A stretch of DNA of 64,000 nucleotides from a bacterium (lineage in GTDB: Bacteria > Patescibacteriota > Saccharimonadia > UBA4664): assembly GCA_016699105.1 (NCBI GenBank), contig CP064960.1, positions 593,034-657,033 on the forward strand, in the 5' to 3' direction. Positions 31,230-50,307 of the stretch are shown here, one piece after another. A model generated the notes under the pieces. The model ran no database searches. It was not told the DNA's origin and worked only from the letters and a program-made list of their open reading frames with translations. The number at the start of each line of letters is the position of its first letter. The stretch's first letter is position 1. A program made the translations under genes and the position numbers.

Positions 31230-32807
31230 ATGTTCGCCATGACGGAATCAACTAGCCAATATTGGCTTGATCAATTTACAACTGAAGTGGTGGCTCAGCA
31301 TCCGGTTGGGGAGATCCTGGTATCGAGCGGTATTTCGCCGTCCGCTTCATATCATATTGGGCATTTTCGTGAAGCCCTGACAGCTGACGCTATAGCTTGG
31401 TCGTTGCGCCAAAATGGTCGTCAGGCGAAACATATACACATAGTAGATAATTTTGATCCCTTGCGTAAGCGGTATCATTTTTTACCAGAACGCTTTGAAC
31501 AATTCGTCGGATGGCCAATCTGCCTGGTTCCAGATCCATTTGATTGCCATCCATCATATGCTCAACACTACGCAGCCGAGTTCAAATCAGCGGCAGCCCA
31601 GATGGGCGTAGAAATGGATGTCATCTATTCGTATGAAGAATTTTATGCAAATGGCAAAATGGCACCTTTTATCGAGCAGGCAATGGCGGGGTTGGACAAA
31701 ATTCGGCACATTTTTGCTGAAGTTTCTCAGCGCGAGTTAGCTCCAGATTGGGTACCTTTGCAAATATTAAGTGATGCCAAAAACTTCAATGAATGGCGAT
31801 TTGAGAGTATAGATACAAAAACTAAAACGCTCGATTACCGAGATAGTCACGGTAAGATTGGTTCGATGCGCTATGATGACGGTCGCGTAAAACTCAACTG
31901 GCGACTGGATTGGCCCGCTCGTTGGGCACTGCTTGGCGTTGATGTCGAGCCTTATGGCAAAGAGCACGCTACAAAGGGCGGATCATATGATACGGGTGCG
32001 CGGTTTGTCCAAGAGGTATTTGCCGCTAAGGCGCCGACACCTTTGCCGTACGATACTATCAATATGGTGGGTGATACCAAAAAAATGAGTTCAAGTTTGG
32101 GTAATCTGGTGACGCCCGCTCAAGCTCTCGAAATTATGCCAGCTGAAATATTGCGGTATTTTATCTTGAAATCATTACCGAAACGAGTAGTTTATTTCGA
32201 TCCAGGCATTGGTTTATACAATTTAGTCGACGAATATGCCAAATTGGATGAGGCCGTTCAAGCTGGTCACCACCCTGAATTTGAGCAAGCCTATCAAGTG
32301 GCTGCGGCTCATGCCGGTGAACGTGTCATATCGACCATCCCTTTTAATCATTTAGTGAGTGTCTATCAAGCAGCCCGCAGCGATATTCATGTGGTGCAGG
32401 CAATATTAGAGCGAGGTGGTTACGCGGAGCAAGTCAAACGTGAATGGCCAGTCATTAAACGTGAGCTAGCGTTTGTGGCTCATTGGCTAGCAAATCATGC
32501 GCCTGACAGTGTCAAATTTGCTATCCAGGAGGAATTGCCGAAGTTAAATTTATCAACCCATCAACAAACATTTTTGGCGCGATTAGCTGATACAATTGCT
32601 GTTGAACATAATCTCAATGGGCAAGGGATGCATGATGCAATATATGCCGCCAGTGTGAGTGCGGAATTGAAGCCAGCCCAAGCTTTTCTGACCTTATATC
32701 AAGTTATACTGGGGCAAGATAAAGGCCCCAAAGCCGGCTGGTTTTTGGCGACACTTGACCAAAATTGGTTAGTTTTGCGGTTGCAAACGGCGGCTGCCAT
32801 ACGCTAG
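31230..32807 (+). CDS. lysS: Class I (archaeal-type) lysyl-tRNA synthetase
   Basis: HIGH motif (SASYHIGHFREA) and KMSSS motif with class-I LysRS architecture. Not the class II LysS. Confidence 0.8.
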   Translation: MFAMTESTSQYWLDQFTTEVVAQHPVGEILVSSGISPSASYHIGHFREALTADAIAWSLRQNGRQAKHIHIVDNFDPLRKRYHFLPERFEQFVGWPICLVPDPFDCHPSYAQHYAAEFKSAAAQMGVEMDVIYSYEEFYANGKMAPFIEQAMAGLDKIRHIFAEVSQRELAPDWVPLQILSDAKNFNEWRFESIDTKTKTLDYRDSHGKIGSMRYDDGRVKLNWRLDWPARWALLGVDVEPYGKEHATKGGSYDTGARFVQEVFAAKAPTPLPYDTINMVGDTKKMSSSLGNLVTPAQALEIMPAEILRYFILKSLPKRVVYFDPGIGLYNLVDEYAKLDEAVQAGHHPEFEQAYQVAAAHAGERVISTIPFNHLVSVYQAARSDIHVVQAILERGGYAEQVKREWPVIKRELAFVAHWLANHAPDSVKFAIQEELPKLNLSTHQQTFLARLADTIAVEHNLNGQGMHDAIYAASVSAELKPAQAFLTLYQVILGQDKGPKAGWFLATLDQNWLVLRLQTAAAIR

Positions 32808-32869
32808 ACTAGTCGTCTGGATCGACACAATCCGAATCTGCCGATCTTGATCCCGATCAGCGAAAATAG

Positions 32870-33526
32870 GTGACGGTCATGTTGCAGCTAGACCATGTTG
32901 CGGCAACTGAATTTTGGCGTGACGCTCGGGAACGACCAGCAGTAACCGGAATGACCTACAAGGGTTGGACTGATGGAAGTTCGAACCGGGGCGACATCAA
33001 GTATGTTCTGGCTGCCGGTGGCGATATCAAGCCGGGTGAAATCGTCAGTCTGCCTGATCCACGTTTGTACCATTATTGTTTTTGGTGCGGAATGCTGACA
33101 TACAATCGTCAATTGATGTATGAACGCATGGGTGCACGGGACTTTGTGACCGCAGTTTGGCCAATGTGTACGATGTGTAATGATGCCGCCCGCCAGGTGG
33201 GTAGGAGTTTGTTAGCGAAAGAAGTATTGCGACAGTACTTACTCTGTTGTCAAATTGAAATGAAGTCGCAACGTCTTGGTCGTCGCGATATGGACAGACA
33301 ATTGCGCCTGCGTGCAGCAATGTTTTTGCGGCAACGCAACCAACGCCAAACCGACCAACAGGCTTTGGCTGACCTATTGGCTCAGCAATACGGGCCAGTT
33401 GTTCAAGGATATCTACAAGATATCGTCAGTAACTCTGAGGCCCAACCTCAAATACAGCCACCTCGACCCGAAAGTATTATCACTGAGATTGACGATGTTT
33501 TGGCACAGCATTTCCGGCAGCAGTAA
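32870..33526 (+). CDS. Hypothetical protein with a CxxC...CxxC zinc-ribbon-like motif and basic, Gln-rich C-terminus
   Basis: Motif YHYCFWCGM...WPMCTMCND. No other motif recognised. Followed by a terminator. Confidence 0.45.
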   Translation: MTVMLQLDHVAATEFWRDARERPAVTGMTYKGWTDGSSNRGDIKYVLAAGGDIKPGEIVSLPDPRLYHYCFWCGMLTYNRQLMYERMGARDFVTAVWPMCTMCNDAARQVGRSLLAKEVLRQYLLCCQIEMKSQRLGRRDMDRQLRLRAAMFLRQRNQRQTDQQALADLLAQQYGPVVQGYLQDIVSNSEAQPQIQPPRPESIITEIDDVLAQHFRQQ

Positions 33527-33554
33527 AGGCGACAAACGTGTATCGCTGATGGAG

Positions 33555-33600
33555 CTGGAAGACCTGGCGTTTCTCGGGTCTTCCAGCCGTTTATTATCTG
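33555..33600 (+). terminator. Rho-independent terminator (CTGGAAGACC-12 nt-GGTCTTCCAG followed by a U-rich tract)
   Basis: 10-bp perfect stem, then ccgtttattatctgtt. Confidence 0.7.
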
Positions 33601-33623
33601 TTAGATTGGAGTATAATAATTAC

Positions 33624-34925
33624 ATGATTGACGTTCGACTACTACGCGACCAACTTGATGCCGTCAAGGCTGCTGCCCAGCATAAAAATGCTGAAATTAG
33701 TGCGGCCCAAATTGATGAAGTATTGGGACTTGATGGTCGCCGGCGCGAGCTACTGACTCAAATCGAGGAATTGCGTCGGCAACGAAATGGGCTGACAAAT
33801 GCTATGTCTGGTGCCAAGCCAACATCAGAACAAGTGACACAAGGCCGGGCTCTCAAAGAAGAGCTAAGTGTGTTGGATGAAGAATTTGGCAAGGTCGATG
33901 AACAGTATATGAGACTGATGAAGCTCATACCAAATCTGCCGACGGGTGACGTACCAATTGGAGCTACCGAGGACGAGAATGTCGTAGCTAAAACCGTGGG
34001 TAAGCCGCGTGAGTTTGATTTCGAAATATTGAATCATTGGCAAATAGGTGAGCGTCGAGGATGGATAGACAAAGAGCGAGCTGCCAAGGTATCCGGTTCC
34101 CGCTTTGCGTACCTAAAGGGTGAGCTGGTGCGCCTGCATATGGCAATGATTGCATTTGCCATGGACGTTTTGACTGATGAATCTGTTTTGCAGCGGATTG
34201 CTGCAGACGCCGGGTTGAAAGTTAGTACGAAACCGTTTGTACCGGTATTACCGCCGCTCCTCATCAAGACTGAACCTTATGACGCTATGGATCGTCTCGA
34301 ACCACGCGAAGACCGCTATAAGATCGAAGGCGATGAATTGTGGCTGCAGGGTAGTGCTGAGCACGTCTTGGGTTCAATGCACGCCAACGAAATAGTGCCG
34401 GAAACAGAATTGCCAATTCGCTATGCCGGTTATGCCACCAGTTTTCGCAAAGAGGCAGGTACATACGGCAAAGATATGGAAGGTATCTTGCGATTGCATC
34501 AGTTCGACAAGCTGGAAATGGAGTCATTGACGACCGCTGAAGTCTCGCGCGATGAACATCTGTTTTTGATAGCAATTCAAGAATACTTAGTGCAGCAACT
34601 GGAAATCCCATATCAAGTAGTCATGAAATGTACCGCCGATATTGGCAAACCTAATGCCCGTGGCGTGGACATCGATTGTTGGCTACCAGGTCAAGGAAAG
34701 TATCGTGAAACCCATACCGCCGATTACATGACCGACTATCAAGCTCGGCGACTACAGACCCGAGTGCGCCGCACCAGTGGAGAAGTGGAGTTAGTGCACA
34801 CCAACGATGCCACTGCCTTGTCGCAACGACCTTTGATTGCATTATTGGAGAACCATCAGCAAGCCGATGGCACCATCAAAGTGCCAAAAGCGCTCGTGAA
34901 ATATTACGGTAAGGAGGTAGTGTAA
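33624..34925 (+). CDS. serS: Seryl-tRNA synthetase
   Basis: N-terminal coiled-coil arm (MIDVRLLRDQLDAV...) and class II core. A TATAAT box lies 7 nt upstream of the ATG, so the mRNA may be leaderless. Confidence 0.85.
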   Translation: MIDVRLLRDQLDAVKAAAQHKNAEISAAQIDEVLGLDGRRRELLTQIEELRRQRNGLTNAMSGAKPTSEQVTQGRALKEELSVLDEEFGKVDEQYMRLMKLIPNLPTGDVPIGATEDENVVAKTVGKPREFDFEILNHWQIGERRGWIDKERAAKVSGSRFAYLKGELVRLHMAMIAFAMDVLTDESVLQRIAADAGLKVSTKPFVPVLPPLLIKTEPYDAMDRLEPREDRYKIEGDELWLQGSAEHVLGSMHANEIVPETELPIRYAGYATSFRKEAGTYGKDMEGILRLHQFDKLEMESLTTAEVSRDEHLFLIAIQEYLVQQLEIPYQVVMKCTADIGKPNARGVDIDCWLPGQGKYRETHTADYMTDYQARRLQTRVRRTSGEVELVHTNDATALSQRPLIALLENHQQADGTIKVPKALVKYYGKEVV

Positions 34926-35285
34926 ATGAAAGTTGACATAACCGGCCGCAATTTTGAAGTAGAGGCCAAACTTCAAGCGTATGTCCAAGAAAAAATTGGT
35001 GGATTAGATAAATTCATCGCCCGCAATGACCAATCAGTAGCCCGAGCAACTGTTGTTCTCGAAGAAGACGCCAGTGGTCGCGAAGACAACCGGTTTGTCT
35101 GTGACGCCGTTGTCAGTCTGCCCAAACAGCAACTCGTGGCCCGAGAGGGGACAGTCAATATGTTTGCGGCTGTCGACATTGTCGAAGCCAAGTTGACTAG
35201 TCAACTGGGTAAATATAAGGCTAAGCATCATGAAGCCGTCCGGCGGGGGAAGCTCTTGAGTAAGTGGATGGGACAATCTGAATAA
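34926..35285 (+). CDS. hpf: Ribosome hibernation-promoting factor (short HPF/RaiA)
   Basis: MKVDITGRNFEVEAKLQAYVQEKI...; the hpf-secA order matches Firmicutes-like synteny. Confidence 0.85.
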   Translation: MKVDITGRNFEVEAKLQAYVQEKIGGLDKFIARNDQSVARATVVLEEDASGREDNRFVCDAVVSLPKQQLVAREGTVNMFAAVDIVEAKLTSQLGKYKAKHHEAVRRGKLLSKWMGQSE

Positions 35286-37902
35286 GTGAAGGCATTTATC
35301 GATAAGTTACTGGGAGATCGTAACGCCCGGGAAGTCAAACGCGCACTCGCTGCCATTGGTAAAGTCAGTGATTTTGATGAGCAATTCCGCAAGCTCAGCG
35401 ATGATGCTTTGCGCGCTAAAACTGATGAATTTCGGGAACGACTGAAGACGGGCATCAAGCTTGAACAGATCTTACCAGAAGCCTTTGCGGCGGTGCGGGA
35501 AGCAGCTAGCCGCAGCATCGGACAGCGGCATTATGATGTGCAGCTGGTGGGTGCTTTGGTGTTACACCAAGGAAAATCGCCGAAATGCGCACCGGTGAAG
35601 GTAAAACGTTGGTGGCGACAGCACCATCGTATCTGAATGCCTTAAGTGGCAAAGGGTGCATGTGGTAACGGTAAACGATTATCTGGCCAGTTTGCATGGC
35701 GGTTGGATGGGTCGGGTTTATTATGCCCTAGGACTATCGACCGGTGTGATCGTTCATGACACAGCCTACATTTATGACCCGGATTTTGTCAGCGAATCCC
35801 ACGACGACGAGCGACTCAATCATTTGCGACCAGTGACGCGAGCCGAAGCCTATCGGGCCGACATCACATATGGTACGAACAATGAATTTGGTTTTGATTA
35901 TTTGCGCGACAATATGGTGGATGACTTAGCTAAAATGGTCCAACGACCGCTGCATTATGCCATCGTTGATGAAGTTGACTCTATCTTGATCGATGAAGCG
36001 CGCACGCCGCTGATTATATCGGCTCCAGCCAATGAAGCTACCGACAAGTATTACGAGTTTGCGCGCTTGGCGGCAGGTTTGAAACCAGAGGATCATTATA
36101 CGGTTGATGAAAAGCTCAAAGCTGTCAGTTTGACCGATGATGGTGTCGAACAAATTGAACGAGCGCTGGGTGTGGACAATGTCTACGAAGCAGGCCGCAT
36201 CGATGACGTTCATCACATCGAGCAAGCTGTGCGGGCGCGGGGCTTGTATCAGCGAGATCGCGATTATGTCGTCCGTGACGGCGAGATTATTATTGTCGAT
36301 GAGTTTACAGGCCGATTGATGCCTGGCCGACGTTGGAGTGAGGGACTGCATCAAGCAGTTGAAGCCAAAGAGGGAGTTCAGATCCAACAGGAATCATTGA
36401 CGCTGGCGACGATTACGTTCCAAAATTATTTCCGATTGTATGAAAAGTTATCGGGTATGACCGGTACTGCTATGACCGAAGCCGAAGAGTTCGGTAAAAT
36501 TTATCAGCTTGATGTGGTCATAATTCCGACTAACCAACCGATGGTGCGCCAAGATTTGCCTGACCGTATTTATAAATCTGAAGACGGCAAATTCCGAGCA
36601 GTAGCGGCAGCCGTGGCAGAGCGCCATGCGGCTGGCGAGCCAGTCTTAATTGGTACTGTTTCCATCGCCAAGAATGAACGATTAAGCCAATATTTGACCG
36701 ATTTAAATGTGCCTCACAAAGTCTTAAATGCCAAGAACAATGAAGCTGAAGCCGCTATTGTGGCGGCGGCAGGTCAGCGCGGCGCTGTTACTCTGGCCAC
36801 AAACATTGCTGGCCGCGGTACCGATATTATGTTGGAAGCAGGCGTTGCCGACCTTGGTGGATTGCACGTCCTGGGTACCGAGCGTCATGAGAGCCGCCGT
36901 ATCGACAATCAGCTGCGTGGTCGCAGTGGTCGCCAAGGTGATCCGGGATCAAGTCAGTTTTATGTTTCCCTCGAAGACGATCTCATGCGAATCTTTGGTT
37001 CCGAGCGTTTGGCTGGACTCATGGATACTTTGGGTTTGGACGATACGATTCCAATTGAAAACAAGCTTGTCAGTCGTAGCCTGGAGAGTGCACAAAAGAA
37101 AGTCGAAGGTCACAACTTCGACACTCGTAAACAGCTGGTTGAGTATGACGATGTCATGAATCGGCATCGTGAAGTCATATATAGCCGCAGGCGGAAAGCA
37201 TTGGCGGCGGATTCGATCAAAGATGACATCTTAACCATGATTGAAAGTCAGGTCAAAGCGCTGGTGACGGTGCATACCAACGAGCGGACGGGGGAGATGG
37301 ATGAAGTGGCTTTACGCGAAGCTATCACTAATCTAGTACCAATGGACGATGATTTGGCTCAAGCAATAGCGGCTGCCCACCCAACGGAAATCAGCGCGCT
37401 CGTGCAAGAGCGGGCGGAGACTACTTATACGAGCAGACAAGAACAATACGGCCCCGAAGTAATGCGGATGCTGGAACGGTATGTCTATGTGTCGGCACTG
37501 GATCGGTTATGGATTGATCATTTGGACGCCATGGAGAACTTGCGGGGCGGTATTGGTCTGCGAGCGATTGGTCAGCGCGATCCGCTGGTGGAGTACAAGC
37601 GTGAAGGTTATCGGATGTTTAAGCAGCTATTAAATCTACTTGATGCTGAGATTGCCAGTACTATTTTCAAAATGGTCGTGCGGCAAGAAGCGCCGCCAGT
37701 AGATGCACCAATTGAAACGGCGCTGACCAAAGCGGCCGAGCAAGCGGTTGGGCGGGGCGGTGCGACCGATCCTGAAAGTTTGGCGGCAGAAGGATCGGCT
37801 CAGTCGCGAGGCTCGAGAGCACAACGACGACTGAAATCCCCCGGTGCTTTACCGGTGTCGGCCACCAAAGCGACCAATAAAAAACGCAAAAAAAGGCGGT
37901 AA
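35286..37902 (+). CDS. secA: Preprotein translocase ATPase SecA, interrupted by two single-base homopolymer deletions (A-run 35573-35576; G-run 35654-35656)
   Basis: The N-terminal ORF ends in garbage after HQGK. Restoring one A gives [31 protein letters not shown] (Walker A). Restoring one G joins it to [11 protein letters not shown]... (ORF 35656..37902) carrying the [18 protein letters not shown] motor motifs. Confidence 0.9.
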
Positions 37903-37904
37903 CA

Positions 37905-39242
37905 ATGACACGTTCCAAACGCTACGAGGGTAAGCGAGTTGGTATCGTCGGATATGGCGTGGAAGGGCGGGTTTCAGCGCAATACTGGCGCCGCCAAGGG
38001 GCTCACGTAACCATATTTGATGGCAATGACCAGTTAGAAGTACCGACAGGCATGTCGGCGGTAGTGGGCGACAACTATCTAGATAATTTTGATGGTTTTG
38101 ATGTACTGGTACATTCACCGGGTATCCGACCTGACCGACTGGTAACATCGACGCATCAACATCAAATTGTCACAAGTGCGACGGCCGAGTTTTTTCGGCA
38201 TTGCCCGGCACCCATTATTGGTGTGACCGGTACCAAAGGCAAAGGAACGACCAGTACTTTAGTTACGAAACTACTGGAAGCAGCAGGTTATAAAGTGTGG
38301 TTGGGTGGTAATATTGGCCAACCGGCGCTGGAATTTATTGATGATATCACCGCACAAGACAAAGTTGTGTTGGAATTATCAAGTTTTCAATTGATGGATC
38401 TACCGCAAAGTCCGCAAACAGCGGTCTGTTTGATGATGGTGCCAGAGCATTTGGATTGGCATACTGATATCGAGGAGTATATTGCAGCCAAGGGCAATAT
38501 AACGCGCTATCAGACGGCGCAAGATATGGTTATTTACCATGGGAGCAATGACTGGAGCCGACAGGTAGCTGAGTTGTCTATAGGTCACAAAACGACATAC
38601 ATGAAGCAGCCAGGTGCCTACATTGATAATGATGCAGTGATGATGGCTGGTCAGCGTATTTGTGGCACGAATGATGTTGGGCTGGTGGGGGCACACATGC
38701 TGGAAAACATCTGTGCTGCTGTGACGGCGGTTTGGGATATGGTGCATCACGATGCTTGTTTGATCGCCAAAGTCATTAAAGATTTCAAAGGGCTGCCGAT
38801 GCGGCTTGAACCTATGGAACGAGTTGATGGGGTAGTGTACGTCAATGATTCATATTCAACGAACCAATACGCCACTATGGCGGCACTGACAAGTTTTGAG
38901 CAAGCGCCCATTGTGATATTGGGTGGATTCGATCGCGGTATCGATCTAACACCCATGATAACCGCGGTGGCTGAATATGCGCCTAGAGGCGTGGTGACTA
39001 TTGGCCAGACGGCAACCATTATCAGAGATGGCTTGCATCAACGTGGACATGACTTGGTAGTAAATGGCGGTTCAACCATGACCGAGATTGTGGCGGCAGC
39101 AGCCAAAATGGCGCAATCAGGTGATGTGGTAATTTTGTCGCCAGGTTGCGCATCATTCGACATGTTTAAGAATTTTAAAGATAGAGGAGAACAGTTCCGG
39201 CGCGCTGTGGCTGGACTGCCTGGAAAACATGAAGCAATATAA
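37905..39242 (+). CDS. murD: UDP-N-acetylmuramoyl-L-alanine--glutamate ligase MurD
   Basis: Rossmann N-terminus VGIVGYGVEGR and Mur ligase P-loop GVTGTKGKGTT. Confidence 0.85.
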   Translation: MTRSKRYEGKRVGIVGYGVEGRVSAQYWRRQGAHVTIFDGNDQLEVPTGMSAVVGDNYLDNFDGFDVLVHSPGIRPDRLVTSTHQHQIVTSATAEFFRHCPAPIIGVTGTKGKGTTSTLVTKLLEAAGYKVWLGGNIGQPALEFIDDITAQDKVVLELSSFQLMDLPQSPQTAVCLMMVPEHLDWHTDIEEYIAAKGNITRYQTAQDMVIYHGSNDWSRQVAELSIGHKTTYMKQPGAYIDNDAVMMAGQRICGTNDVGLVGAHMLENICAAVTAVWDMVHHDACLIAKVIKDFKGLPMRLEPMERVDGVVYVNDSYSTNQYATMAALTSFEQAPIVILGGFDRGIDLTPMITAVAEYAPRGVVTIGQTATIIRDGLHQRGHDLVVNGGSTMTEIVAAAAKMAQSGDVVILSPGCASFDMFKNFKDRGEQFRRAVAGLPGKHEAI

Positions 39243-40467
39243 AACGTTTCGCTTTATTGATGTAGTTTGGCAAGAATCGACAAGATCCGTCGTCATGCGC
39301 TATGGGTTGGATGATGAGATCATATTTAAGGATACCGTTGTATTCGAGTTTGATCTCAGTTCAAAATTCAACCGTGAATTGCTCGAGCGCGCCATGCGCA
39401 GCTTATGGCTGGTCAATGGAGTTTCATACTACAAAGCGGCTCTGACTCCGAAGATTGATGCGCAAGCGGCTCATTTGACCGCGGCAGAAGCCGAGTTTTT
39501 GTCGACTACCTACCGGCTGGGGCTGGGGCAACTGTGCTATGAACACAAACTTCCTCTCGATAGAGTTGCAGTTTTTAAGCCGATTATAGGCGCAGTTGCA
39601 ACTCCAGTGGCGGCAACTGGGTTGAGCGGAAGTGTCGTGGGATTGGGCGGTGGCAAAGATTCGCTCGTGACGACCACCATACTCGAAAAAATGGGGGAGG
39701 AGTTTGTCACATTTAGTGCCACCTACATGCCGGAAGAAAATGGAGCTTTAGCTCAGTTGGCAGAAGTCATTGGCAAGCCCCATCTGGTGATTCGGCGGCG
39801 ATTCGACCCGCAGTTGGCGCAGCTCAACCGCGATGGCGCCTACAATGGTCATGTGCCAGTGACGGCGATCATTACGCTGATCGGCTTAGTCGCTGCCATC
39901 TTGACTGGGCGGAGGCAAGTAATCATGAGCAATGAGGCTTCTGCGGGAGAAGGCAATGTCGAATGGGATGGTGTCATGGTTAACCATCAGTATTCCAAAA
40001 CACTGGCCTATGAACGACTTTTGAGTGAGCATATAACGAGCAGTGTTTCGCCCGACTTGCAGGTATTCTCATTATTGAGGCCACTCGGTGAGTTGCAAAT
40101 CGCCAAATTATTTGCGGCTGGACCAATGCAGCGTTACCAGGGACTATATTCGTCGTGTAATCGTAATTTCAAAGCGGATGCCGGCGCATTTGGTTGGTGC
40201 GGTGAGTGCTCGAAATGTGCATTTGTGTATTTGATCTTGTCTCCATTTGTATCAAAGAAAGATTTGCGAATGGTCTTTGGTGCCGATTTATTGACTCTGC
40301 CCGCCTTGCAAACTACATTTCGTGAGCTATTTGGTATTAGTGGTCACAAACCTTTCGAATGCGTGGGTGAGATTGCGAATGCCGCGCGGCAGCAACGCAA
40401 GCATTTAAGTCGGGCGATTATCCGGAACTCGCCGATTTTCAAGTACCGGCTACTGATTTCGACATGA
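39229..40467 (+). CDS. PP-loop (adenine-nucleotide alpha-hydrolase superfamily) ATP pyrophosphatase-like protein with C-terminal Cys cluster; translationally coupled to murD
   Basis: PP-loop VVGLGGGKDS at about residue 140. C-terminal GWCGECSKCAFVYL (QueC-like Cys motif). 130-aa N-terminal domain of unknown type. Overlaps murD by 14 nt. Confidence 0.5.
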   Translation: MKQYKTFRFIDVVWQESTRSVVMRYGLDDEIIFKDTVVFEFDLSSKFNRELLERAMRSLWLVNGVSYYKAALTPKIDAQAAHLTAAEAEFLSTTYRLGLGQLCYEHKLPLDRVAVFKPIIGAVATPVAATGLSGSVVGLGGGKDSLVTTTILEKMGEEFVTFSATYMPEENGALAQLAEVIGKPHLVIRRRFDPQLAQLNRDGAYNGHVPVTAIITLIGLVAAILTGRRQVIMSNEASAGEGNVEWDGVMVNHQYSKTLAYERLLSEHITSSVSPDLQVFSLLRPLGELQIAKLFAAGPMQRYQGLYSSCNRNFKADAGAFGWCGECSKCAFVYLILSPFVSKKDLRMVFGADLLTLPALQTTFRELFGISGHKPFECVGEIANAARQQRKHLSRAIIRNSPIFKYRLLIST

Positions 40468-40528
40468 AGCAATGGCACGATCATCTATTACCAGAACGCT
40501 ATGAAGCTGCCCTAAAAGTAGCGTTTGC

Positions 40529-41812
40529 ATGAAACATACAATTAGCCAACACAACTTATCTTCAGGAGCCAAAGGCTTATTGGTCGAGGTGCCCGGCAGC
40601 CAGGTTATTGATCTAGAGGTACGATTTAACTCGGGTTATGTTTTTGGCGGTAGAGATCGGTATGAAACGCCGCATGTGTTAGAGCACTTGCTAGCTACAA
40701 CCAGTGCCAAATATCCGAAATCGAACCAATTTATGATTGAGGCATCGAAAAACGGGGCTTATGTAAATGCCTATACGACGGCCAGGTCAAACGGTTACAC
40801 CTATGAATTGGCCGAGTTTGAACTCGACCGCATGCTTGATTTGGTCGAAGAACAACTGGCTCGACCCCTGTTTACCCGAGAACATTTAACGGCAGAACTT
40901 GGCAATGTCAAAGAAGAACTGTCACGAAACACAACACAACCGGCGGCTGTGTGTGCCTTGTCGTTGGCCGCTGCAACTCAACCTGACCAATATCAGTATT
41001 ATGACGATCGCATCGATCAATTGGCCGATATTAGCTTGGTTGACATTCAGAAGCACTTTAGTGCGACACATGCGGCGGCAAACGCGCGTTTTTTTGTCGG
41101 TGGGGCTTTGCGCGGACGGTCAAACGAAATACTCGAGCGATTAGAGAAGCTGTTTCGTGAGGTCCCAGAAGGCCAGCGGTTACAACACAAAGCAAGTCCA
41201 GTGAAACCAGGTCTATCGGTGGTACAAGTTCAGCGCGATATCAACCAGCTGTATTACCGGCTTGAGCGGCAATTACCAGAGCAGTCATGGCAGAATCGTC
41301 GTGCCTTGGCGGTATTGCGGTCTATTTTGGTTGGGACCATGGGTTCACGCATTTTAGGAGCTGCTCGAACTCGAGGTTTGGCCTATACGGTGGGAGCTGC
41401 TAATCAAACCGAACCTGGTTTGAGTGTATTTAGTTTCCAGGGTTTCGTGACTGTTGATAACTCTGTAGCACTGTTTGAATTGATTGCTGATCAGATACAA
41501 CGAGTGGCTCATAATGGCGTGACGGCTGATGAAGTGGCGGTGGCAACCCAATTTATGATCGGTAGTGTCCTGCGTAGTACGCAAACGGTCGGTGATGTCC
41601 TTGGATGGTATGTGGATAACTATGACGGCTGGGAAGAAATCAAAGACATGCAACAAGAAATTGTGGCTCTGCGGGCGGTTTCACCAGATGAAGTTCAGGA
41701 AGCAGCTCGGACATTATTAGCAGATGGTAACTTTGCCTGGAGCTTAGTGGGGCCAACAAAAAATACCTTAACAAGCACCCTACAGCAGGCATTAGGGGAG
41801 TGGGCAATCTAG
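40529..41812 (+). CDS. M16-family (insulinase/pitrilysin-like) zinc peptidase
   Basis: Inverted zinc motif HVLEHLL (HxxEH). Confidence 0.7.
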   Translation: MKHTISQHNLSSGAKGLLVEVPGSQVIDLEVRFNSGYVFGGRDRYETPHVLEHLLATTSAKYPKSNQFMIEASKNGAYVNAYTTARSNGYTYELAEFELDRMLDLVEEQLARPLFTREHLTAELGNVKEELSRNTTQPAAVCALSLAAATQPDQYQYYDDRIDQLADISLVDIQKHFSATHAAANARFFVGGALRGRSNEILERLEKLFREVPEGQRLQHKASPVKPGLSVVQVQRDINQLYYRLERQLPEQSWQNRRALAVLRSILVGTMGSRILGAARTRGLAYTVGAANQTEPGLSVFSFQGFVTVDNSVALFELIADQIQRVAHNGVTADEVAVATQFMIGSVLRSTQTVGDVLGWYVDNYDGWEEIKDMQQEIVALRAVSPDEVQEAARTLLADGNFAWSLVGPTKNTLTSTLQQALGEWAI

Positions 41813-41984
41813 TTACATGTGTTAGAAATTATTGACACAATCATTCATCTGTGTTAACTTGTTTAATGTAACTTGGCACTCGGATAGGTATTGATAACGT
41901 GTCGGTGGTTGATATGTGCCGCCCATGTATCGCCGCCGGCACGGTATTCGTACCCGTCCGAATTGTGTAATTGACGCCATAGTT

Positions 41985-42016
41985 TACAAGACTCCCTCTT
42001 ACGAGGGAGTCTTGTA
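41985..42016 (+). terminator. Strong stem-loop (14-bp perfect stem TACAAGACTCCCTC-ttac-GAGGGAGTCTTGTA) downstream of the M16 peptidase gene and upstream of mraZ
   Basis: Seen in sequence. The downstream tract cgUUgUacgggUcgUgUUUgUgg is only moderately U-rich. Confidence 0.5.
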
Positions 42017-42056
42017 CGTTGTACGGGTCGTGTTTGTGGATAAGATAATGCTAGAC

Positions 42057-42104
42057 AGTGGGTAAGTAGCCAGCATATACTGAATCCAGTGGGTTGCAGT
42101 GGGT
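42057..42104 (+). promoter_or_regulatory. Putative MraZ operator: three direct repeats AGTGGGT (42057, 42088, 42098), the last two exactly 10 bp apart, about 30-70 bp upstream of mraZ
   Basis: Repeats seen in sequence. MraZ proteins are known to bind direct (T)GGGN-type repeats in the mraZ/dcw promoter region. A perfect DnaA-box-like TGTGGATAA also sits at about 42033-42041. Confidence 0.5.
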
Positions 42105-42131
42105 AGCGAACCTGACGGTAAATATCACAAT

Positions 42132-42490
42132 ATGGATTATTTTGAACGCAAACTCGACGACAAAAACCGCCTGACTATTCCGGCAGAATTGCGACACGAG
42201 TTTGAAGCGGGCAATGTGATAATTACTCGAGGCTTCGCCAACTACCTGCATCTGTACACTGAAAAACTTGGAATGAGGCAATGGAACCGGCGCTCAAAGG
42301 CAATATACTCGACGAGCGTACGGCCGATCTGAACGTCCAGTTTCGGACGGGTAAAACAGCTAGCCATCTCGACGCCAAACAAGGGCGGATTGTGGTGGAA
42401 CAGCACTTGCTCGACTATGCCGGCATTGACCGCGACATCGTGGCGGTGCGGGCAGGCAGCTACTGGCGCCTCATGGCCAAAACCCACTAA
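42132..42490 (+). CDS. mraZ: Transcriptional regulator MraZ, split by a single-base deletion in an A-run (42263-42267)
   Basis: First repeat MDYFERKLDDKNRLTIPAELRHEF...NVIITRG, second repeat DAKQGRIVVEQHLLDYAGIDRDIVAVRAGSYWRL. Adding one A joins LHLYTEK|TWNEAMEPALKG. Confidence 0.8.
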
Positions 42491-42847
42491 TTTCTTTGGT
42501 TTATTTATCAAAATAAAGAACCTTCAAAACCAAAACAAACATTTCAAGAGCAGCTACTTGGCAGTCAACAAATCGGACCCAAAGGCGGCCGATCCCAAAA
42601 CAGCCTGGTACCTTTCGTCTCGTAAAAACTCCACCTCACAACACACTCTTTTGAAAGGAATTATTTTACCTGCAAAATGCTTATGCATTACGGTAGGCGA
42701 GTAATTCCTTATCTCACATGCGTATGCCTCACTCGCACAGTTAGGCATACTGCGAACTCAAATCACTCACTGGTTTACCAGTGACGAAAACCAAAAAAAC
42801 CAAAAAACAAAACGTTGACTGCTAAGTAGTTGAGCTCGAAAATAAAA

Positions 42848-42874
42848 AATAACCCGCATAACATGCGGGTTATT
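42848..42874 (+). other. Perfect 12-bp hairpin AATAACCCGCAT-aac-ATGCGGGTTATT in the rsmH 5' region, at the end of a 400-nt A-rich mraZ-rsmH intergenic region
   Basis: Seen in sequence. No U-tract. It lies inside the N-terminal extension of the ORF-track rsmH ORF, which argues the real start is the downstream Met. Confidence 0.45.
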
Positions 42875-42901
42875 GAGTATGTAACGTATATAATGATTTC
42901 G

Positions 42902-43828
42902 ATGACGAATCTGCATACGCCCGTATTACTCAATCAAGTCTTAGAAATATTAGATCCACAAGTGGGTCAGAAATATTTGGATGCAACGGCTGGACTGGGT
43001 GGACACGCCCAGGCAATCCTCGAACGGACTCAATCGCCACAAGAGGCAGTGCTGGTTGATCAAGACGCCACGGCCATAGCGGTATTGGAGGAGAAATTTC
43101 CACAGGCGACAGTTGTACAGACGGATTTTGCTTCGGCGGCACAGTCGTTGCTCGATGAAGGTCGACAGTTTGATTTGATACTCATGGACTTGGGGGTATC
43201 GTCGCCGCAACTAGATCGGGCGGAGAGGGGATTTAGCTTCCGGTACGAGGGACCACTTGATATGCGCATGGACCAGACAGCAGAACTGTCGGCCGATCAA
43301 GTGGTTAATACTTATACACAGGTAGAACTCGAGCGGATACTGTATGAATTTGGCGAAGAGCCACGGGCTCGGGCGGTCGCGGCCGCAATTGTAGCAGCGC
43401 GACCCCTGCGGACAACTCAAGAGTTGGCTGCGGTTGTACGCCGAGCCGCGTTTCGACCCAAAGAAATTGATGCAGCCACCAAGACTTTTCAGGCGATTAG
43501 ACTTGCTGTAAATAATGAACTAGACACGCTTGCACAAACTGTGCCGCTTATGGTAGAGTTGCTAGTACCAGGCGGAAAGCTGGTTATCATAAGCTTTCAC
43601 TCCCTGGAGGATCGAATCGTTAAACTGTACTTTGACCGAGAAACGAAATCCTGCATCTGCCCACCGAAACAGCCGATCTGTACGTGTGAGCACCAACCAA
43701 CACTGGAAAAAATTACCAGGAAACCATTGGTAGCGGATGCATCTGAAATAGCTTTCAATCCACGAGCCCGTAGCGCAAAGCTGCGAGCCGTCGAAAAAAT
43801 AAACAAAAACAAAAGGAGGGACAGCTAA
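42902..43828 (+). CDS. rsmH: 16S rRNA (cytosine1402-N4)-methyltransferase RsmH/MraW
   Basis: HTPVLLNQVLEILDP...YLDATAGLGGHAQAIL SAM motif. A TATATAAT box sits 7 nt upstream of the ATG at 42902. Confidence 0.85.
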   Translation: MTNLHTPVLLNQVLEILDPQVGQKYLDATAGLGGHAQAILERTQSPQEAVLVDQDATAIAVLEEKFPQATVVQTDFASAAQSLLDEGRQFDLILMDLGVSSPQLDRAERGFSFRYEGPLDMRMDQTAELSADQVVNTYTQVELERILYEFGEEPRARAVAAAIVAARPLRTTQELAAVVRRAAFRPKEIDAATKTFQAIRLAVNNELDTLAQTVPLMVELLVPGGKLVIISFHSLEDRIVKLYFDRETKSCICPPKQPICTCEHQPTLEKITRKPLVADASEIAFNPRARSAKLRAVEKINKNKRRDS

Positions 43829-44027
43829 TGTCTGTCACCATTCGCCAGCTTGGAAAGAAACAAGCTCAAAAAGTGCTAGTACGCGTACGGGTTTCGTAAA
43901 CCTGTTGCGCTATTTGGTGTGTGGCCGTCAAGAACTGATTAATACAAAAAATTATTAATCGATTCATTCGGCGGCCACCACCGGCTCTATATTAAAATAA
44001 ATAAAAACAAAATAAAGGAGACGCGCT

Positions 44028-44348
44028 TTGTCATCTGCGGTTGTAACAGCGCGGCGAAACCAGAATTTGTACCGGCAACCGGCGACGGTGGTACTGGGTC
44101 CGACATCGGCTACTTTTGTCGTAGTAGCGATAGTTGGGGTGTTGGCTTTGCTTTACTTACATCAAATTACTAAGACAGGAGCCCTGGGATATAAAGTTAC
44201 CGATTTGGCAAGAACTCGTGACGCTGTGGCTGCTCAGAAACAAGACTTGAGTGTCGAAGCTGCCAGGTTGCAGTCAATCGCCGCAACCAAGTCGTCACCA
44301 GTGGCAGCTGGAATGGTGCCTCAAGCTCAGGTATCGTATGCCAAGTGA
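44028..44348 (+). CDS. ftsL: Cell division protein FtsL (bitopic, coiled-coil)
   Basis: 106 aa with a single TM (FVVVAIVGVLALLYL) followed by a coiled-coil. TTG start with AAGGAG RBS. Sits between rsmH and ftsI. Confidence 0.65.
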   Translation: MSSAVVTARRNQNLYRQPATVVLGPTSATFVVVAIVGVLALLYLHQITKTGALGYKVTDLARTRDAVAAQKQDLSVEAARLQSIAATKSSPVAAGMVPQAQVSYAK

Positions 44349-46091
44349 CACCCATTCGTGAAGGACTAATTTGGAGAGGGCGCTTACGGTACCTGCAATT
44401 TGGCACCGTGGTACTAGCGGGCGTACTCATTGGCCGGTTGGGTTATTTGCAAATTGTGCAGCATGATAAATATCAAGCACAAGCGGCTGAAGAGCATACC
44501 CGTAAGTACCAAATTCCTTCAACGAGGGGTGAAATCTATGCCTATGATGGCTCCACAGTCGTGCCGCTGGTTTTAAACCAGACCATGCATTTATTGTATG
44601 TTGATCCTCGTTACGTGGATGACCGCGATGGTGTGGCCGCAAAATTGGCTGAAGTTACCGGAGCTAAGGCCGCTGATTATCGCTCGCGTATTGATAAGGG
44701 TATCGAATACGCTATCTTGGAGCGTCGCATTAGCAATGATATTGCGACCAAGGTTCGAGAGCTGGGTATAAAGGCGTTGGATTGACGCCGACTGCTTACC
44801 GGACCTATCCCGAAAGCAGCTTGGCAGCTCAAGTGTTGGGATTTGTAAACGCTGATGGTATCGGTCAATACGGTATTGAAGGCTTTTAAACGAACAATTA
44901 GCTGGACAGCCGGGACAATTGGCGGCTAAGACTGATACGAGAGGCATACCAATAGCTACTGCTGATAACATAGTCAAACCGCCGCAAAACGGTATCAATT
45001 ATGCACTGACTATCGATCGCAATATTCAAGCCATGGCTGAGCAACGCTTAGCTGAACAGATAACTGCGGTCAAAGCTAAATCCGGAAGCATTATTATTAT
45101 GGATACCGATGGGGCCGTGCGGGCGATGGCTAATTTCCCGACATTTGATCCCAACGCATATTCGTCGGTTACTGATTACAGTGTTTTTATGAATCAAACG
45201 GTGAGCAGCCAATTTGAACCTGGTTCGGGCATGAAAGCCTTTGCTATGGCTATTGGTCTGGATCAGCAAAAGATTACGCCCGATACGACCTATGATGACA
45301 CGGGATCGGTTAAAGTGGCTGATAAAGTGATTAATAACGCCGAAGGCGACAAGCCTGGTGCTGGTAAGTCGATGACGGTCGTACTGCGAGACTCGCTCAA
45401 TACCGGAATGGTATTCGTGCTCAAGATGATTGGTGGCAATGCTGATGCAATTACATCGACTGGTAAGAAATTAGTCTACGAGTATTACACCAAGCATTTT
45501 GGATTTGGGGAGCGCACTGGTATTGAACAAGCAGCTGAGGCTGCTGGATCGCTGCCACCAGCCAATCGTGATGATGTGACCTATGCCAACATGGTATTTG
45601 GGCAAGGTTTGAGTGTCACCATGATTCAAATGACCACAGCTATGGCTGCCATTGCCAATGGGGGCACGTTATATCAACCCCGGTTGGTAGCGGGCGAGGT
45701 CAAAGCTGACGGATCGGTGCTGCCGACTTCATCCAAAATCTTACGGTCCTCGGTCATCAGCCAAAAAACGGCTCAAGATCTAGGTACAATGCTCCAAGTA
45801 GTAGTGCAACGCGGAAGTGGTTACCGGGCTGGGCAAATGAATCCTGGGTATAAGATTGCCGGTAAAACCGGTACGGCGCAAATTCCCCGGCCAGACGGCA
45901 AAGGCTACATTGACGGCGCCAATATTGGATCATTTGTCGGCTATGCGCCAGCTGATAACCCCCGATTTGTCGTCATGGTGCGGATTAACGAGCCGGGTGT
46001 GCCCGGATTTGCCGAGACCACTACCGTGCCCGTTTTTGGCGATGTCTGTAAGTGGTTGTTTAAGTATTACGCCATTGCGCCGACAAGCTAG
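44345..46091 (+). CDS. ftsI: Septal peptidoglycan transpeptidase (class B PBP, FtsI-like), split into three ORFs by two single-base deletions (G-run ~44773; T-run ~44884-44887)
   Basis: Continuous reading VRELGIK|GVGLTPTAYRTYPESSLAAQVLGF...GIEG|FLNEQLAGQPGQLAAKTDTRG... Transpeptidase boxes SxN (SLN) and KTGTA are present. Confidence 0.8.
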
Positions 46092-46122
46092 TGAATATTT
46101 TGTTAAAATACCAAGGTAACCT

Positions 46123-49493: not shown

Positions 49494-50307
49494 ACGGTCA
49501 ACGCCGGGTCGTGCGTACTGCTCGCGGTGTCTATGGCCGGTCGGTGCCGCTTGCGTCTCCATCCAAACGTCGGGTGCGGTTCGAGTTTGGCTGGACAGTC
49601 AGCCAACGCTTGCGCCGGTTAGCAATTTTACTGGTCGTGGCTGGAGTCTTAGCTGGTGCTGGTATCTGGCTGGTATCGGTACGATCAGTCCAGGTGCGAG
49701 CCGCTGATCAGCAGGATACAATTACCAAGGACATTTGGCAGCATTTAAATGACGGTTGGTGGCCAGCCAATCTCGTGACATTGGATGAAGCGGCATTGGA
49801 ATCAGCTATTCGCGAAGTCCATCCTGTGGTGAAGGATCTCCAATTTAAGCGCCAATGGCCCAGTACCTTGGTGGTAACGGCTGAGCTAAAATCACCGCAA
49901 CTTGTCTGGTATTCGGAAGTCAACTAGCAGTACTCGATGCTGATGGCACAGCCATTGGCGGAATGAGCGCGGCTGATGCCAAATTGCCTGTCGTCTATGA
50001 TGGCAGCAATCTGCCAGTTGAGCCAGGACAGCAAGTAGTGCGGGCCCAGTTTGTGACCTATATTCATGAACTGACGGCAGGGTTAGCTAGTAGGGGAGTT
50101 GGTATTAACAAATTGCGGGTAGGCCAGACGACACTGGATTTGACGGTTGAAACCAATAAGACGTACCAACTCGTTTTCGATACGTCACGTCTAGCAGGGG
50201 AGGGGCTTAGGGATTATGATGCCGTAATTAAATCAGCGACCAACTTGAAGAAACCTATCAATGAATACATTGATTTACGCATTAGTGGTAAGGCGTACTA
50301 TAAGTAG
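49490..50307 (+). CDS. ftsQ: Cell division protein FtsQ/DivIB (POTRA domain), split by a single-base deletion (~49922)
   Basis: N-terminal TM (LAILLVVAGVLAGAGIWLV), POTRA-like region, then C-terminal beta domain in the second ORF. Adding one A joins WYSEV|KLAVLDADGTAIGG. Confidence 0.65.

What the first reader, a model, noticed from the sequence alone, without database searches (positions are those of the whole stretch)
39229..40467. PP-loop ATP-pyrophosphatase-like enzyme translationally coupled to murD: candidate peptidoglycan-precursor-modifying enzyme (MurL-like glutamate epimerase?)
The gene overlaps murD by 14 nt and is therefore co-expressed with the enzyme that adds Glu to UDP-MurNAc-L-Ala. 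It encodes a 412-aa protein with a PP-loop (VVGLGGGKDS) and a QueC-like C-terminal Cys cluster (GWCGECSKC), a fold that adenylates carboxylates. The reported MurD2/MurL route (L-Glu addition followed by ATP-dependent epimerisation of the terminal Glu, my recollection of the Xanthomonas work) would need exactly such an activity next to murD. If this genome lacks glutamate racemase, this could be the D-Glu-forming step; otherwise it may be an unrelated tRNA/queuosine-type enzyme that merely sits here.
Basis: inference. Interest (0 to 1): 0.55.

Follow-up and report, generated by a model that had tools for sequence, protein, structure and literature searches.

The report
MurD2–MurL D-glutamate pathway in Saccharibacteria
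The gene after murD is a clear homologue of MurL, the ATP-dependent epimerase that turns the L-glutamate on a cell-wall precursor into D-glutamate, so this small bacterium probably uses a known but rarely noticed alternative to glutamate racemase.

Summary
It matches the NCBIfam MurL model (E=3e-96). A 97%-identical protein carries Pfam MurL_N and MurL_epimerase_C. It shares every invariant motif with MurL from clades where the enzyme was characterised.

The upstream ligase has the MurD2 residues (Glu and Arg at E. coli D182 and K348). In Saccharibacteria this locus has two forms. Arg-type murD is followed by murL in 13 of 13 loci. Lys-type murD lacks murL in 7 of 7 loci, and in two of those a murI-like gene sits beside murD.

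The 412-aa ORF is cut short by a one-base deletion at 40376. The true gene is 39229..40532 (434 aa). A 98.4%-identical contig shows ten more deletions of this kind in 17.8 kb, breaking secA, ftsW and a PBP gene, so the frameshift is probably a sequencing error.

This is a new member of a known family. I could not test whether the genome lacks murI. The searchable literature does not report MurL in the candidate phyla radiation (CPR). Interest is moderate.

The parts
37905..39242 (+). [quoted passage not shown] It starts 3 nt after the secA stop and overlaps murL by 14 nt.
   Evidence: It matches TIGR01087 murD at 334 bits and has the Mur_ligase_M and Mur_ligase_C domains. At E. coli MurD positions D182/K319/K348/A414/L416 it has E/Y/R/A/F. 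Arg at 348 sits in the motif GGFDRG.
39229..40376 (+). murL, first part (aa 1-382, frame 1), up to the 1-nt deletion. It contains the MurL_N domain and the PP-loop core.
   Evidence: Match to NF041275 MurL, E=3e-96, residues 3-389. 97% identical to P0001, which carries PF26299 and PF26298.
40377..40532 (+). murL, second part (aa 384-434, read in frame 3 after restoring one C). The TGA at 40530-40532 overlaps the next gene's ATG.
   Evidence: Frame-3 translation ECRAAATQAFKSGDYPEL...KVAFA* matches the C-terminus of P0001. The deletion was located by alignment to L084.
40376..40377 (+). Frameshift site: one C is missing (GCC GAA -> GCGAA) inside the conserved KPFECVGEIxE motif.
   Evidence: blastn against L084. 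It is one of 11 short deletions in the window over 17.8 kb.
39634..39663 (+). PP-loop VVGLGGGKDS (aa 136-145). GGGKDS is invariant in 117 of 117 homologues.
   Evidence: In the model it lies between strand 135-138 and helix 143-154. hhalign places it on the QueC motif SGGQDS.
40156..40218 (+). Cys cluster C310-x13-C324-x2-C327-x2-C330, a probable metal (Zn) site.
   Evidence: C310 is Cys in 116/117, position 324 is Cys in 98 and Asp in 19, and C327 and C330 are Cys in 117/117. The cluster aligns with the C-x8-C-x2-C-x2-C cluster of E. coli QueC.
40348..40371 (+). Conserved motif KPFECVGE (K374, P375 and C378 invariant). Candidate catalytic residues lie just before the frameshift.
40529..41812 (+). 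M16-family peptidase-like gene, overlapping the true murL stop by 4 nt (ATGA). It is a neighbour at this locus in Saccharibacteria, not part of the pathway as far as shown.
   Evidence: Pfam Peptidase_M16 and Peptidase_M16_C. The same neighbour is present whether or not murL is there.

Best explanation
The two overlapping genes encode the alternative D-glutamate route of peptidoglycan synthesis first described in Xanthomonas oryzae. MurD2 (37905..39242) ligates L-glutamate, not D-glutamate, onto UDP-MurNAc-L-Ala. MurL (39229..40532 once the missing base is restored) then uses ATP to convert the terminal L-Glu to D-Glu in one direction, giving the normal substrate for MurE.

My inference on mechanism is as follows. 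MurL's QueC-like PP-loop domain binds ATP and adenylates the alpha-carboxylate of the terminal Glu, releasing PPi. This activation makes the C-alpha proton acidic, possibly through an oxazolone formed with the preceding amide. An active-site base removes the proton and it is put back on the opposite face. [quoted passage not shown] The Cys cluster most likely holds a structural Zn as in QueC.

Shown here: homology, fold, conserved motifs, gene linkage and fusions, the MurD2 residue signature, and the murL/murI alternation. Taken from the literature: the enzyme activities, measured for the Xanthomonas, Micromonospora and Salinispora enzymes. Inferred: that the Saccharibacteria proteins do the same, and the chemical details.
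For: MurL homology:
- NF041275 MurL matches at E=3e-96, covering profile positions 6-389 of 447.
- The 97%-identical P0001 carries Pfam MurL_N and MurL_epimerase_C.
- Identity is 37-41% to MurL from Lysobacterales, Rhodanobacteraceae, Micromonosporaceae and Devosia, with GGGKDS, NGHxP, NHQxSK, SCN, CxKC, and P-x2-CVG followed by a Glu three residues on, all invariant.

Fold:
- AF2 model has pLDDT 96.2 and pTM 0.94.
- Foldseek: QueC E=1.3e-4, TM 0.66.
- This agrees with the published ATP->AMP stoichiometry and proposed adenylation (PMC8788868, PMC5808125).

MurD2 signature:
- Glu and Arg at E. coli D182 and K348. Reverting these two residues in X. oryzae MurD2 (E197D/R358K) switched the enzyme to D-Glu.
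- 59 of 68 MurL-adjacent MurDs have Glu plus Arg, and 68 of 68 have Arg.

Linkage:
- murD is next to murL on the same strand in 73 of 80 genomes.
- 17 fusion proteins occur among the top 150 representatives.

Natural control in Saccharibacteria:
- Arg-type murD has murL in 13 of 13 loci.
- Lys-type murD in the same secA-murD-...-M16-mraZ context has no murL in 7 of 7 loci. In L091 a murI homologue fills the same slot, and in L087 a murI lies beside murD.
Against: - No enzyme assay exists for any CPR member.
- The score is below the NCBIfam equivalog cutoff (322.6 against 700), although that model is built for Xanthomonadales.
- The gene as sequenced is frameshifted inside a conserved motif.
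- Absence of murI or dat from this genome is untested; only the 64-kb window was searched.
- Arg at the K348 position also occurs in a canonical D-Glu MurD from Streptococcus (3lk7).
- Glu at 182 and a non-Lys at 319 also occur in Lys-type Saccharibacteria MurDs that sit beside murI. The residue signature is therefore suggestive, not proof.
- The position of E. coli A414 is Ala, not the Pro of Xanthomonas MurD2, though the review reports that reverting that Pro (P433A) left specificity unchanged.
- The locus counts (13 of 13 against 0 of 7) are not phylogenetically independent.
Confidence: 0.85

Rival explanations
1. The murL copy in this organism is a real pseudogene. The frameshift at 40376 is genuine, and D-Glu comes from elsewhere, such as a murI in the unseen part of the genome or uptake from the host bacterium.
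For: The window as given has the frameshift inside the conserved KPFECVGEIxE motif, removing nearly invariant E384 and the last 51 residues. Saccharibacteria are reduced episymbionts that lose genes (general knowledge).
Against: Ten other short deletions, mostly in homopolymer runs, occur in the same 17.8 kb relative to L084. They break secA twice, and also ftsW and a PBP gene, and these are unlikely all to be dead. Downstream of the shift the correct frame stays open to an ATGA overlap with the next gene and shows only 5 substitutions against P0001. The partner MurD is the Arg type, which was never found without murL (0 of 7 against 13 of 13).
Confidence: 0.07
2. The protein is a MurL-family PP-loop enzyme that does a different adenylation-dependent reaction on the muropeptide precursor in CPR bacteria. 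One example would be amidation of a Glu carboxylate with ammonia, as QueC, NAD synthetase and asparagine synthetase-type enzymes do, rather than epimerisation.
For: The nearest solved folds (QueC, nitrile synthetase ArtA, NAD synthetase) adenylate a carboxylate and then add ammonia. Identity to characterised-clade MurL is only 37-41%. No CPR enzyme has been assayed.
Against: All residues invariant in the family are shared with the Xanthomonadales and Micromonosporaceae clades, where activity was measured. The tight pairing with an Arg-type MurD, and the replacement by murI in the same slot in related genomes, point specifically to D-Glu supply.
Confidence: 0.05
3. It is an unrelated QueC/ExsB-type or tRNA-modifying PP-loop enzyme that merely sits next to a canonical murD.
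For: The PP-loop fold and a QueC-like Cys cluster.
Against: There is no QueC or tRNA-modification family hit in NCBIfam or Pfam, and the best non-MurL hit is NadE at E=1e-3. hhalign to E. coli QueC gives probability 1.2%. The protein is twice the length of QueC, with extra N- and C-terminal domains. Linkage to murD is conserved across phyla, and fusions exist.
Confidence: 0.01

Closest known systems
[quoted passage not shown] 2017, reviewed in PMC8788868 and PMC5808125)
   Same: Same family by NCBIfam and Pfam (MurL_N + MurL_epimerase_C), the same length (about 434 aa against a 447-position model), the same invariant motifs, and the same pairing with a MurD-like ligase.
   Different: Identity to proteobacterial and actinobacterial MurL is only 37-41%, and the score is below the Xanthomonadales equivalog cutoff. 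The gene order is murD->murL in Saccharibacteria, whereas it is murL->murD in Xanthomonas and in every other taxon sampled. The host is a CPR bacterium, a group absent from the published distribution list. Activity has not been assayed.
[quoted passage not shown]
   Same: A Mur ligase of the MurD type with Glu and Arg at the positions of E. coli D182 and K348, Phe at L416, encoded next to murL.
   Different: Ala rather than Pro at the A414 position, and Tyr where most MurD2-type proteins have Ile at the K319 position. Public pipelines name these proteins D-glutamate ligase.
QueC, 7-cyano-7-deazaguanine synthase (PDB 3bl5, 2pg3), and the wider PP-loop ATP pyrophosphatase superfamily
   Different: About 16% identity and no significant sequence-family match. 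MurL is about twice as long, with extra N-terminal (1-125) and C-terminal helical (340-434) domains. The PP-loop reads GGGKDS rather than SGGxDS. The reported outcome is epimerisation, not amide or nitrile formation.
MurI glutamate racemase with canonical MurD
   Same: It supplies the same product, D-Glu at stem-peptide position 2. In related Saccharibacteria, murI occupies the very slot after murD that murL occupies here (L091).
   Different: Unrelated fold and mechanism: a cofactor-independent two-Cys racemase acting on free glutamate, and reversible. It is paired with Lys-type MurD.

Membership tests
[quoted passage not shown] | Domain architecture Pfam MurL_N (PF26299) + MurL_epimerase_C (PF26298) | tested here: met
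   All 120 listed homologues carry both domains. The domain names come, on P0001 (97% identical). The local Pfam copy lacks these models, so there was no direct hit on the window protein.
[quoted passage not shown] | NCBIfam NF041275 equivalog score at or above the curated cutoff (700 bits) | tested here: not met
   322.6 bits, E=3e-96, covering profile positions 6-389 of 447. The model is specific to Xanthomonadales, and the missing C-terminal part is the frameshifted region.
[quoted passage not shown] | Family-invariant residues shared with experimentally characterised clades (Xanthomonadales, Micromonosporaceae) | tested here: met
   GGGKDS, R190, NGHxP, NHQxSK, E262, S-LR, SCN, C-KC, and P-x2-CVG followed by a Glu three residues on, are invariant in an 19-sequence cross-phylum alignment and in 117 homologues.
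[quoted passage not shown] | Encoded next to a MurD2-type ligase | tested here: met
   14-nt overlap with murD in the window. Adjacent in 73 of 80 genomes. Fused in 17 of the top 150 representatives.
[quoted passage not shown] | Intact full-length reading frame | tested here: not met
   A 1-nt deletion at 40376 truncates the ORF at 412 aa. It is probably a sequencing artefact, given 10 further deletions in neighbouring essential genes.
[quoted passage not shown] | ATP- and Mg-dependent, one-way L->D epimerisation of the terminal Glu with AMP release | not testable with these tools
   Known only for the X. oryzae, Micromonospora and Salinispora enzymes (PMC8788868).
[quoted passage not shown] | Genome lacks glutamate racemase and D-amino-acid aminotransferase | not testable with these tools
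   tblastn with E. coli MurI finds nothing in the 64-kb window (best E=2.1). The rest of the genome is not available. dat was not searched.
MurD2 (L-Glu-adding MurD) | Glu at the position of E. coli D182 and Arg at the position of K348 (X. oryzae E197 and R358) | tested here: met
   The window has E (in VPEHLD) and R (in GGFDRG). Canonical PDB MurDs have D/K (E. coli, 7sir, 4buc) or T/R (3lk7).
MurD2 (L-Glu-adding MurD) | Pro and Phe at the positions of E. coli A414 and L416 | tested here: inconclusive
   The window has Ala and Phe. The review reports that the reverse substitutions at these two positions in X. oryzae MurD2 (P433A, F435L) left specificity unchanged, and Phe also occurs in canonical MurDs.
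MurD2 (L-Glu-adding MurD) | Uses L-Glu and not D-Glu in vitro | not testable with these tools
   Inferred only from the residues and from the Arg-type/murL against Lys-type/no-murL split in Saccharibacteria.
PP-loop ATP pyrophosphatase superfamily (QueC-like) | Rossmann-like alpha/beta fold with a PP-loop (SGGxDS) between the first strand and helix | tested here: met
QueC family proper | Significant sequence match to QueC models | tested here: not met
   No QueC hit in NCBIfam or Pfam. hhalign against E. coli QueC gives E=0.044 and probability 1.2%.

The most novel reading that the evidence does not exclude
The MurD2/MurL route is a major source of cell-wall D-glutamate across the candidate phyla radiation (Saccharibacteria, Peribacteria, Peregrinibacteria, Gracilibacteria, Parcubacteria, Uhrbacteria), not a rarity of a few proteobacterial and actinobacterial genera. 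Within Saccharibacteria it is exchanged with murI as an alternative cassette at the same site after murD, together with a Lys/Arg switch in the ligase's glutamate pocket. This would account for CPR genomes that appear to lack a glutamate racemase. It would also mean that many database entries are misnamed ('D-glutamate ligase', 'endonuclease domain-containing protein').
Probability: 0.6. Interest if true: 0.5.

Novelty: new member of a known kind. Interest (0 to 1): 0.4.

Why it matters
The pathway and both enzyme families are already described. Pfam, NCBIfam and JGI's annotation pipeline recognise MurL, so the core finding is a correct identification, not a discovery. Four points add something.

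First, the discoverers' reviews list the pathway only in some Gamma- and Alphaproteobacteria and rare actinobacteria. Here it appears in many CPR lineages and in Solirubrobacterales. No paper in the searchable library links MurL to CPR bacteria.

Second, related Saccharibacteria carry either Arg-type murD plus murL, or Lys-type murD without murL, at the same locus. In two of the latter a murI sits beside murD. This is a natural experiment that supports the assignment. It also narrows the ligase's stereo-selectivity to a few pocket positions: E. coli 322, 324, 346 and 348.

Third, those reviews state that MurL lacks known domains. The confident QueC-like PP-loop model with a Zn-type Cys cluster gives a concrete, testable basis for the proposed adenylation.

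Fourth, the adjacent ligase is routinely named a D-glutamate ligase, and NCBI names MurL homologues 'endonuclease domain-containing protein'. These annotations hide the pathway in metabolic reconstructions of reduced genomes.

Tried and rejected
- Local Pfam-A scan of the ORF: no hit, because the copy predates the MurL models.
- Sequence search of the PDB with the ORF: no hit, so no solved MurL structure matches it by sequence.
- AlphaFold database (afdb50) fold search, intended to compare with the X. oryzae MurL model: the library was not available.
- hhalign of the family profile against E. coli QueC: not significant (E=0.044, probability 1.2%). It is used only to show that the two motifs fall in register.
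- tblastn with E. coli MurI against the window: nothing, but 64 kb cannot show absence from the genome.
- Peñalver et al. 2024, the title of which (seen in a reference list) reports glutamate racemase activity in Ca. Saccharimonas aalborgensis: not held in the library. I do not know whether that study considered MurL.
- I first took the non-Lys residue at the E. coli K319 position, and Glu at D182, as MurD2 markers. I dropped them as discriminators within Saccharibacteria, because Lys-type MurDs next to murI also have Glu or Asp at 182 and Phe or Ile at 319.
- Conserved coupling of the M16 peptidase gene with murL: rejected. That gene is present at this locus with or without murL.
- A recoded or programmed frameshift in murL: rejected in favour of sequencing error, because similar deletions hit many neighbouring genes.
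Full report
OBSERVATION

The ORF at 39229..40467 (+, ATG start, 412 aa) exists and overlaps the stop of the upstream murD (37905..39242) by 14 nt.

Its 3' end is an artefact. In frame 3, the stretch 40377..40532 reads ECRAAATQAFKSGDYPEL...KVAFA*. Its TGA overlaps the ATG of the next gene as ATGA. The closest database protein, P0001 (97% identical, 434 aa), runs straight through this junction as ...PFECVGEIAECRAAATQAFK....

The contig that encodes P0001 (L084) is 98.4% identical to window 32727..50524. It differs by 275 substitutions and 12 indels. Eleven of the indels are 1-2-nt deletions in the window, mostly in homopolymer runs. They fall in secA (35577, 35656), murL (40376, CC->C), mraZ (42262), a PBP gene (44770, 44884), ftsW (48124) and further downstream. 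The corresponding ORFs in the window are visibly split, while L084 has them intact.

Restoring one C gives a 434-aa MurL that differs from P0001 at 14 residues. I conclude that the true gene is 39229..40532 and that the frameshift is very probably a sequencing error. A genuine recent pseudogene cannot be excluded without the reads.

WHAT IT IS

The protein matches NCBIfam NF041275 (MurL, UDP-N-acetyl-alpha-D-muramoyl-L-alanyl-L-glutamate epimerase). The match is E=3e-96 at 322.6 bits, residues 3-389 on profile positions 6-389 of 447. The only other hits are marginal ones to NAD synthetase over the PP-loop. The score is below the 700-bit equivalog cutoff of that Xanthomonadales-specific model.

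More than 7,900 homologues were found. All 120 listed carry PF26298 and PF26299, which are named MurL_epimerase_C and MurL_N. JGI names several of them MurL. NCBI names several 'endonuclease domain-containing protein'.

A full HMM scan of 1.84 billion cluster representatives finds 3,717 family clusters, of which 1,654 have E<=1e-30.

A scan of GTDB species genomes recovered the gene in these groups:
- CPR lineages: Saccharibacteria, Peribacteria, Peregrinibacteria, Gracilibacteria, Parcubacteria and Uhrbacteria.
- Actinomycetota: Solirubrobacterales, Acidimicrobiia and Micromonosporaceae.
- Alphaproteobacteria: Devosia, Emcibacter and Stellaceae.
- Gammaproteobacteria: Lysobacterales, Rhodanobacteraceae and others.

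The repaired window protein is 37-41% identical to MurL from Lysobacterales, Rhodanobacteraceae, Micromonosporaceae and Devosia, taxa in which the discoverers reported MurD2/MurL orthologues. Activity itself was measured for the X. oryzae, Micromonospora and Salinispora enzymes. The window protein shares every invariant motif with them: GGGKDS, NGHxP, NHQxSK, S-LR, SCN, C-KC, and P-x2-CVG followed by a Glu three residues on.

FOLD AND MECHANISM

The core, roughly residues 130-340, is therefore a PP-loop ATP pyrophosphatase domain. It is flanked by an N-terminal beta-rich domain and a C-terminal helical domain. No MurL structure has been solved as far as sequence search shows.

A profile-to-sequence alignment with E. 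coli QueC is not significant on its own (E=0.044). It does place GGGKDS on QueC's SGGQDS. It also places C310/C324/C327/C330 on QueC's Cys cluster. From my own knowledge, that cluster binds Zn in QueC. Position 324 is Cys in 98 and Asp in 19 of 117 homologues, and the other three are essentially invariant, as expected for metal ligands.

The discoverers reported that MurL consumes one ATP, forms AMP, works only from L to D, and 'lacks known conserved domains'. A PP-loop domain explains the AMP: these enzymes adenylate a carboxylate and release PPi.

My proposed sequence is adenylation of the Glu alpha-carboxylate, then loss and re-addition of the now acidic C-alpha proton (possibly through an oxazolone), then hydrolysis of the adenylate. 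This is inference. Candidate acid/base residues are the invariant H208, H253, K257, C378 and E384.

THE PARTNER LIGASE

The upstream gene is a MurD-type ligase (TIGR01087, 334 bits). Published mutagenesis of X. oryzae MurD2 identified E197 and R358, which correspond to E. coli D182 and K348, as the residues that set L-Glu specificity. The double mutant E197D/R358K switched the enzyme to D-Glu.

Aligned to E. coli MurD, the window protein has Glu and Arg at these positions, Tyr at K319, Ala at A414 and Phe at L416. Canonical MurDs with solved structures have D/K (E. coli, 7sir, Thermotoga 4buc) or T/R (Streptococcus agalactiae 3lk7). Among 68 MurDs encoded next to murL in other genomes, all have Arg and 59 have Glu plus Arg.

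LINKAGE

In 73 of 80 genomes a murD-like gene lies immediately beside murL on the same strand. Most of the seven exceptions are contigs or loci that end at murL. In eleven of the twelve loci titled Saccharibacteria or Saccharimonadales (L003) the order is murD->murL with a short overlap, as in the window. L004 shares that order. Every locus from another named taxon has murL->murD, as in Xanthomonas.

Fusions occur in both orders. Four were seen among the genome loci (L009, L024, L038, L075). Seventeen were seen among the top 150 family representatives, three as MurD-MurL and fourteen as MurL-MurD. Fourteen of the 17 match the GGx(D/E)RG pattern, and the motif search found none in the other three.

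A NATURAL CONTROL WITHIN SACCHARIBACTERIA

The 120 closest homologues of the window MurD fall into two types. Twenty-six have Arg at the position of E. coli K348, in the motif GGxDRG, and the window protein is of this type. Ninety-four have Lys, typically in the motif GGSDK followed by G or K.

I looked up seven Lys-type genes on long contigs (L086-L092). Six share the window's context, lysS-serS-hpf-secA-murD upstream, and five of these continue to an M16 gene and mraZ-rsmH. None has murL within 6-10 kb, either in the gene calls or by tblastn.

In L091 a murI homologue follows murD with a 4-nt overlap. It carries PF01177, gives E=2e-29 to E. coli MurI, and keeps both catalytic Cys motifs. It sits exactly where murL sits in the window. 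In L087 a murI is convergent with murD.

By contrast, all 13 Arg-type Saccharibacteria loci have murL. These are the window, L084, L001-L008, L010, L030 and L051.

The Arg and Lys types also differ consistently at E. coli positions 322 (Asn against Thr), 324 (hydrophobic against Glu/Asp) and 346 (Phe/Tyr/Met against Ser). These lie around the glutamate pocket. Glu at 182 and a non-Lys at 319 occur in both types, so they do not discriminate in this phylum.

The counts are not phylogenetically independent. Even so, the pattern is what one expects if murL plus Arg-type MurD, and murI plus Lys-type MurD, are alternative solutions to the same problem.

WHAT COULD NOT BE SETTLED

- There is no murI in the 64-kb window, but the rest of the genome is unavailable.
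- No CPR enzyme has been assayed.
- A 2024 paper whose title, seen in a reference list, reports an active glutamate racemase in Ca. Saccharimonas aalborgensis is not held in the library. Its title fits the Lys-type/murI configuration seen here, but I could not read it.

COMPARISON AND NOVELTY

This is a member of the known MurL family, paired with a MurD2-type ligase. Four elements are not in the searchable literature:
- the presence of the pathway across CPR phyla;
- the murL/murI alternation at one locus in Saccharibacteria;
- the QueC-like PP-loop fold of MurL;
- the MurD-MurL fusions.

These are useful refinements of a known system, not a new kind of system. I rate it a new member of a known kind, with interest 0.4.

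Noticed in passing
window 35577, 35656, 40376, 42262, 42624, 42759, 42808, 44770, 44884, 48124, 49915, 50448: Twelve indels relative to a 98.4%-identical contig (L084). Eleven are 1-2-nt deletions in the window, mostly in A, T or G runs. They split secA (two shifts), murL, mraZ, a PBP/ftsI-like gene (44345..44785 + 44919..46091) and ftsW (47181..48137 is truncated). The pattern is typical of uncorrected long-read homopolymer errors. Any ORF-based reading of this window should allow for it.
   Followed up: yes
L009, L024, L038, L075; proteins P0241, P0244, P0251 (MurD-MurL) and P0252, P0273, P0281, P0286, P0292, P0297, P0302, P0306, P0324, P0339, P0340, P0349, P0360, P0372 (MurL-MurD): Single polypeptides of about 800-910 aa fuse MurL and a MurD-type ligase, in both orders. 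Fourteen of the 17 match the GGx(D/E)RG pattern, and the motif search found none in the other three. I found no mention of such fusions in the papers searched.
   Followed up: partly
L001-L008, L010, L030, L051 and the window, against the other loci of L011-L080: Gene order is murD->murL in eleven of the twelve loci titled Saccharibacteria or Saccharimonadales; L001, L002 and L007 carry only generic titles but share that order. It is murL->murD in all other sampled taxa, including other CPR phyla, Actinomycetota and Proteobacteria. This suggests a single rearrangement, or an independent insertion after murD, in the Saccharibacteria lineage.
   Followed up: partly
L091 7296-8066; L087 11359-11991 (- strand): In related Saccharibacteria with Lys-type MurD, a glutamate racemase homologue (PF01177, 33-34% identical to E. 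coli MurI) lies directly beside murD. In L091 it occupies the slot that murL occupies in the window.
   Followed up: yes
L086 11283-12080, L090 7284-8066, L092 7349-8113, L091 8056-8853: A short-chain dehydrogenase/reductase gene (adh_short) sits between murD, or murI, and the M16 gene in several Lys-type Saccharibacteria loci. It is absent from the window. Its function is unknown.
   Followed up: no
database names: NCBI names several MurL homologues 'endonuclease domain-containing protein'. [quoted passage not shown] Both names are probably wrong for this family pair.
   Followed up: partly
window 40529-41812: An M16-family (insulinase-like) peptidase gene is overlapped by the true murL stop (ATGA). 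It is a constant neighbour between murD and mraZ in 6 of the 8 looked-up Saccharibacteria contigs (L084, L086 and L088-L090, L092), whether or not murL is present. Its role next to the division and cell-wall gene cluster is unexplained.
   Followed up: partly
window 40198-40200 (C324 codon); alignment A1: The second ligand of the Cys cluster is Asp instead of Cys in 19 of 117 homologues, for example FWDGKCAKC in the oral Saccharibacteria locus L005. This is compatible with a metal site but was not examined further.
   Followed up: no
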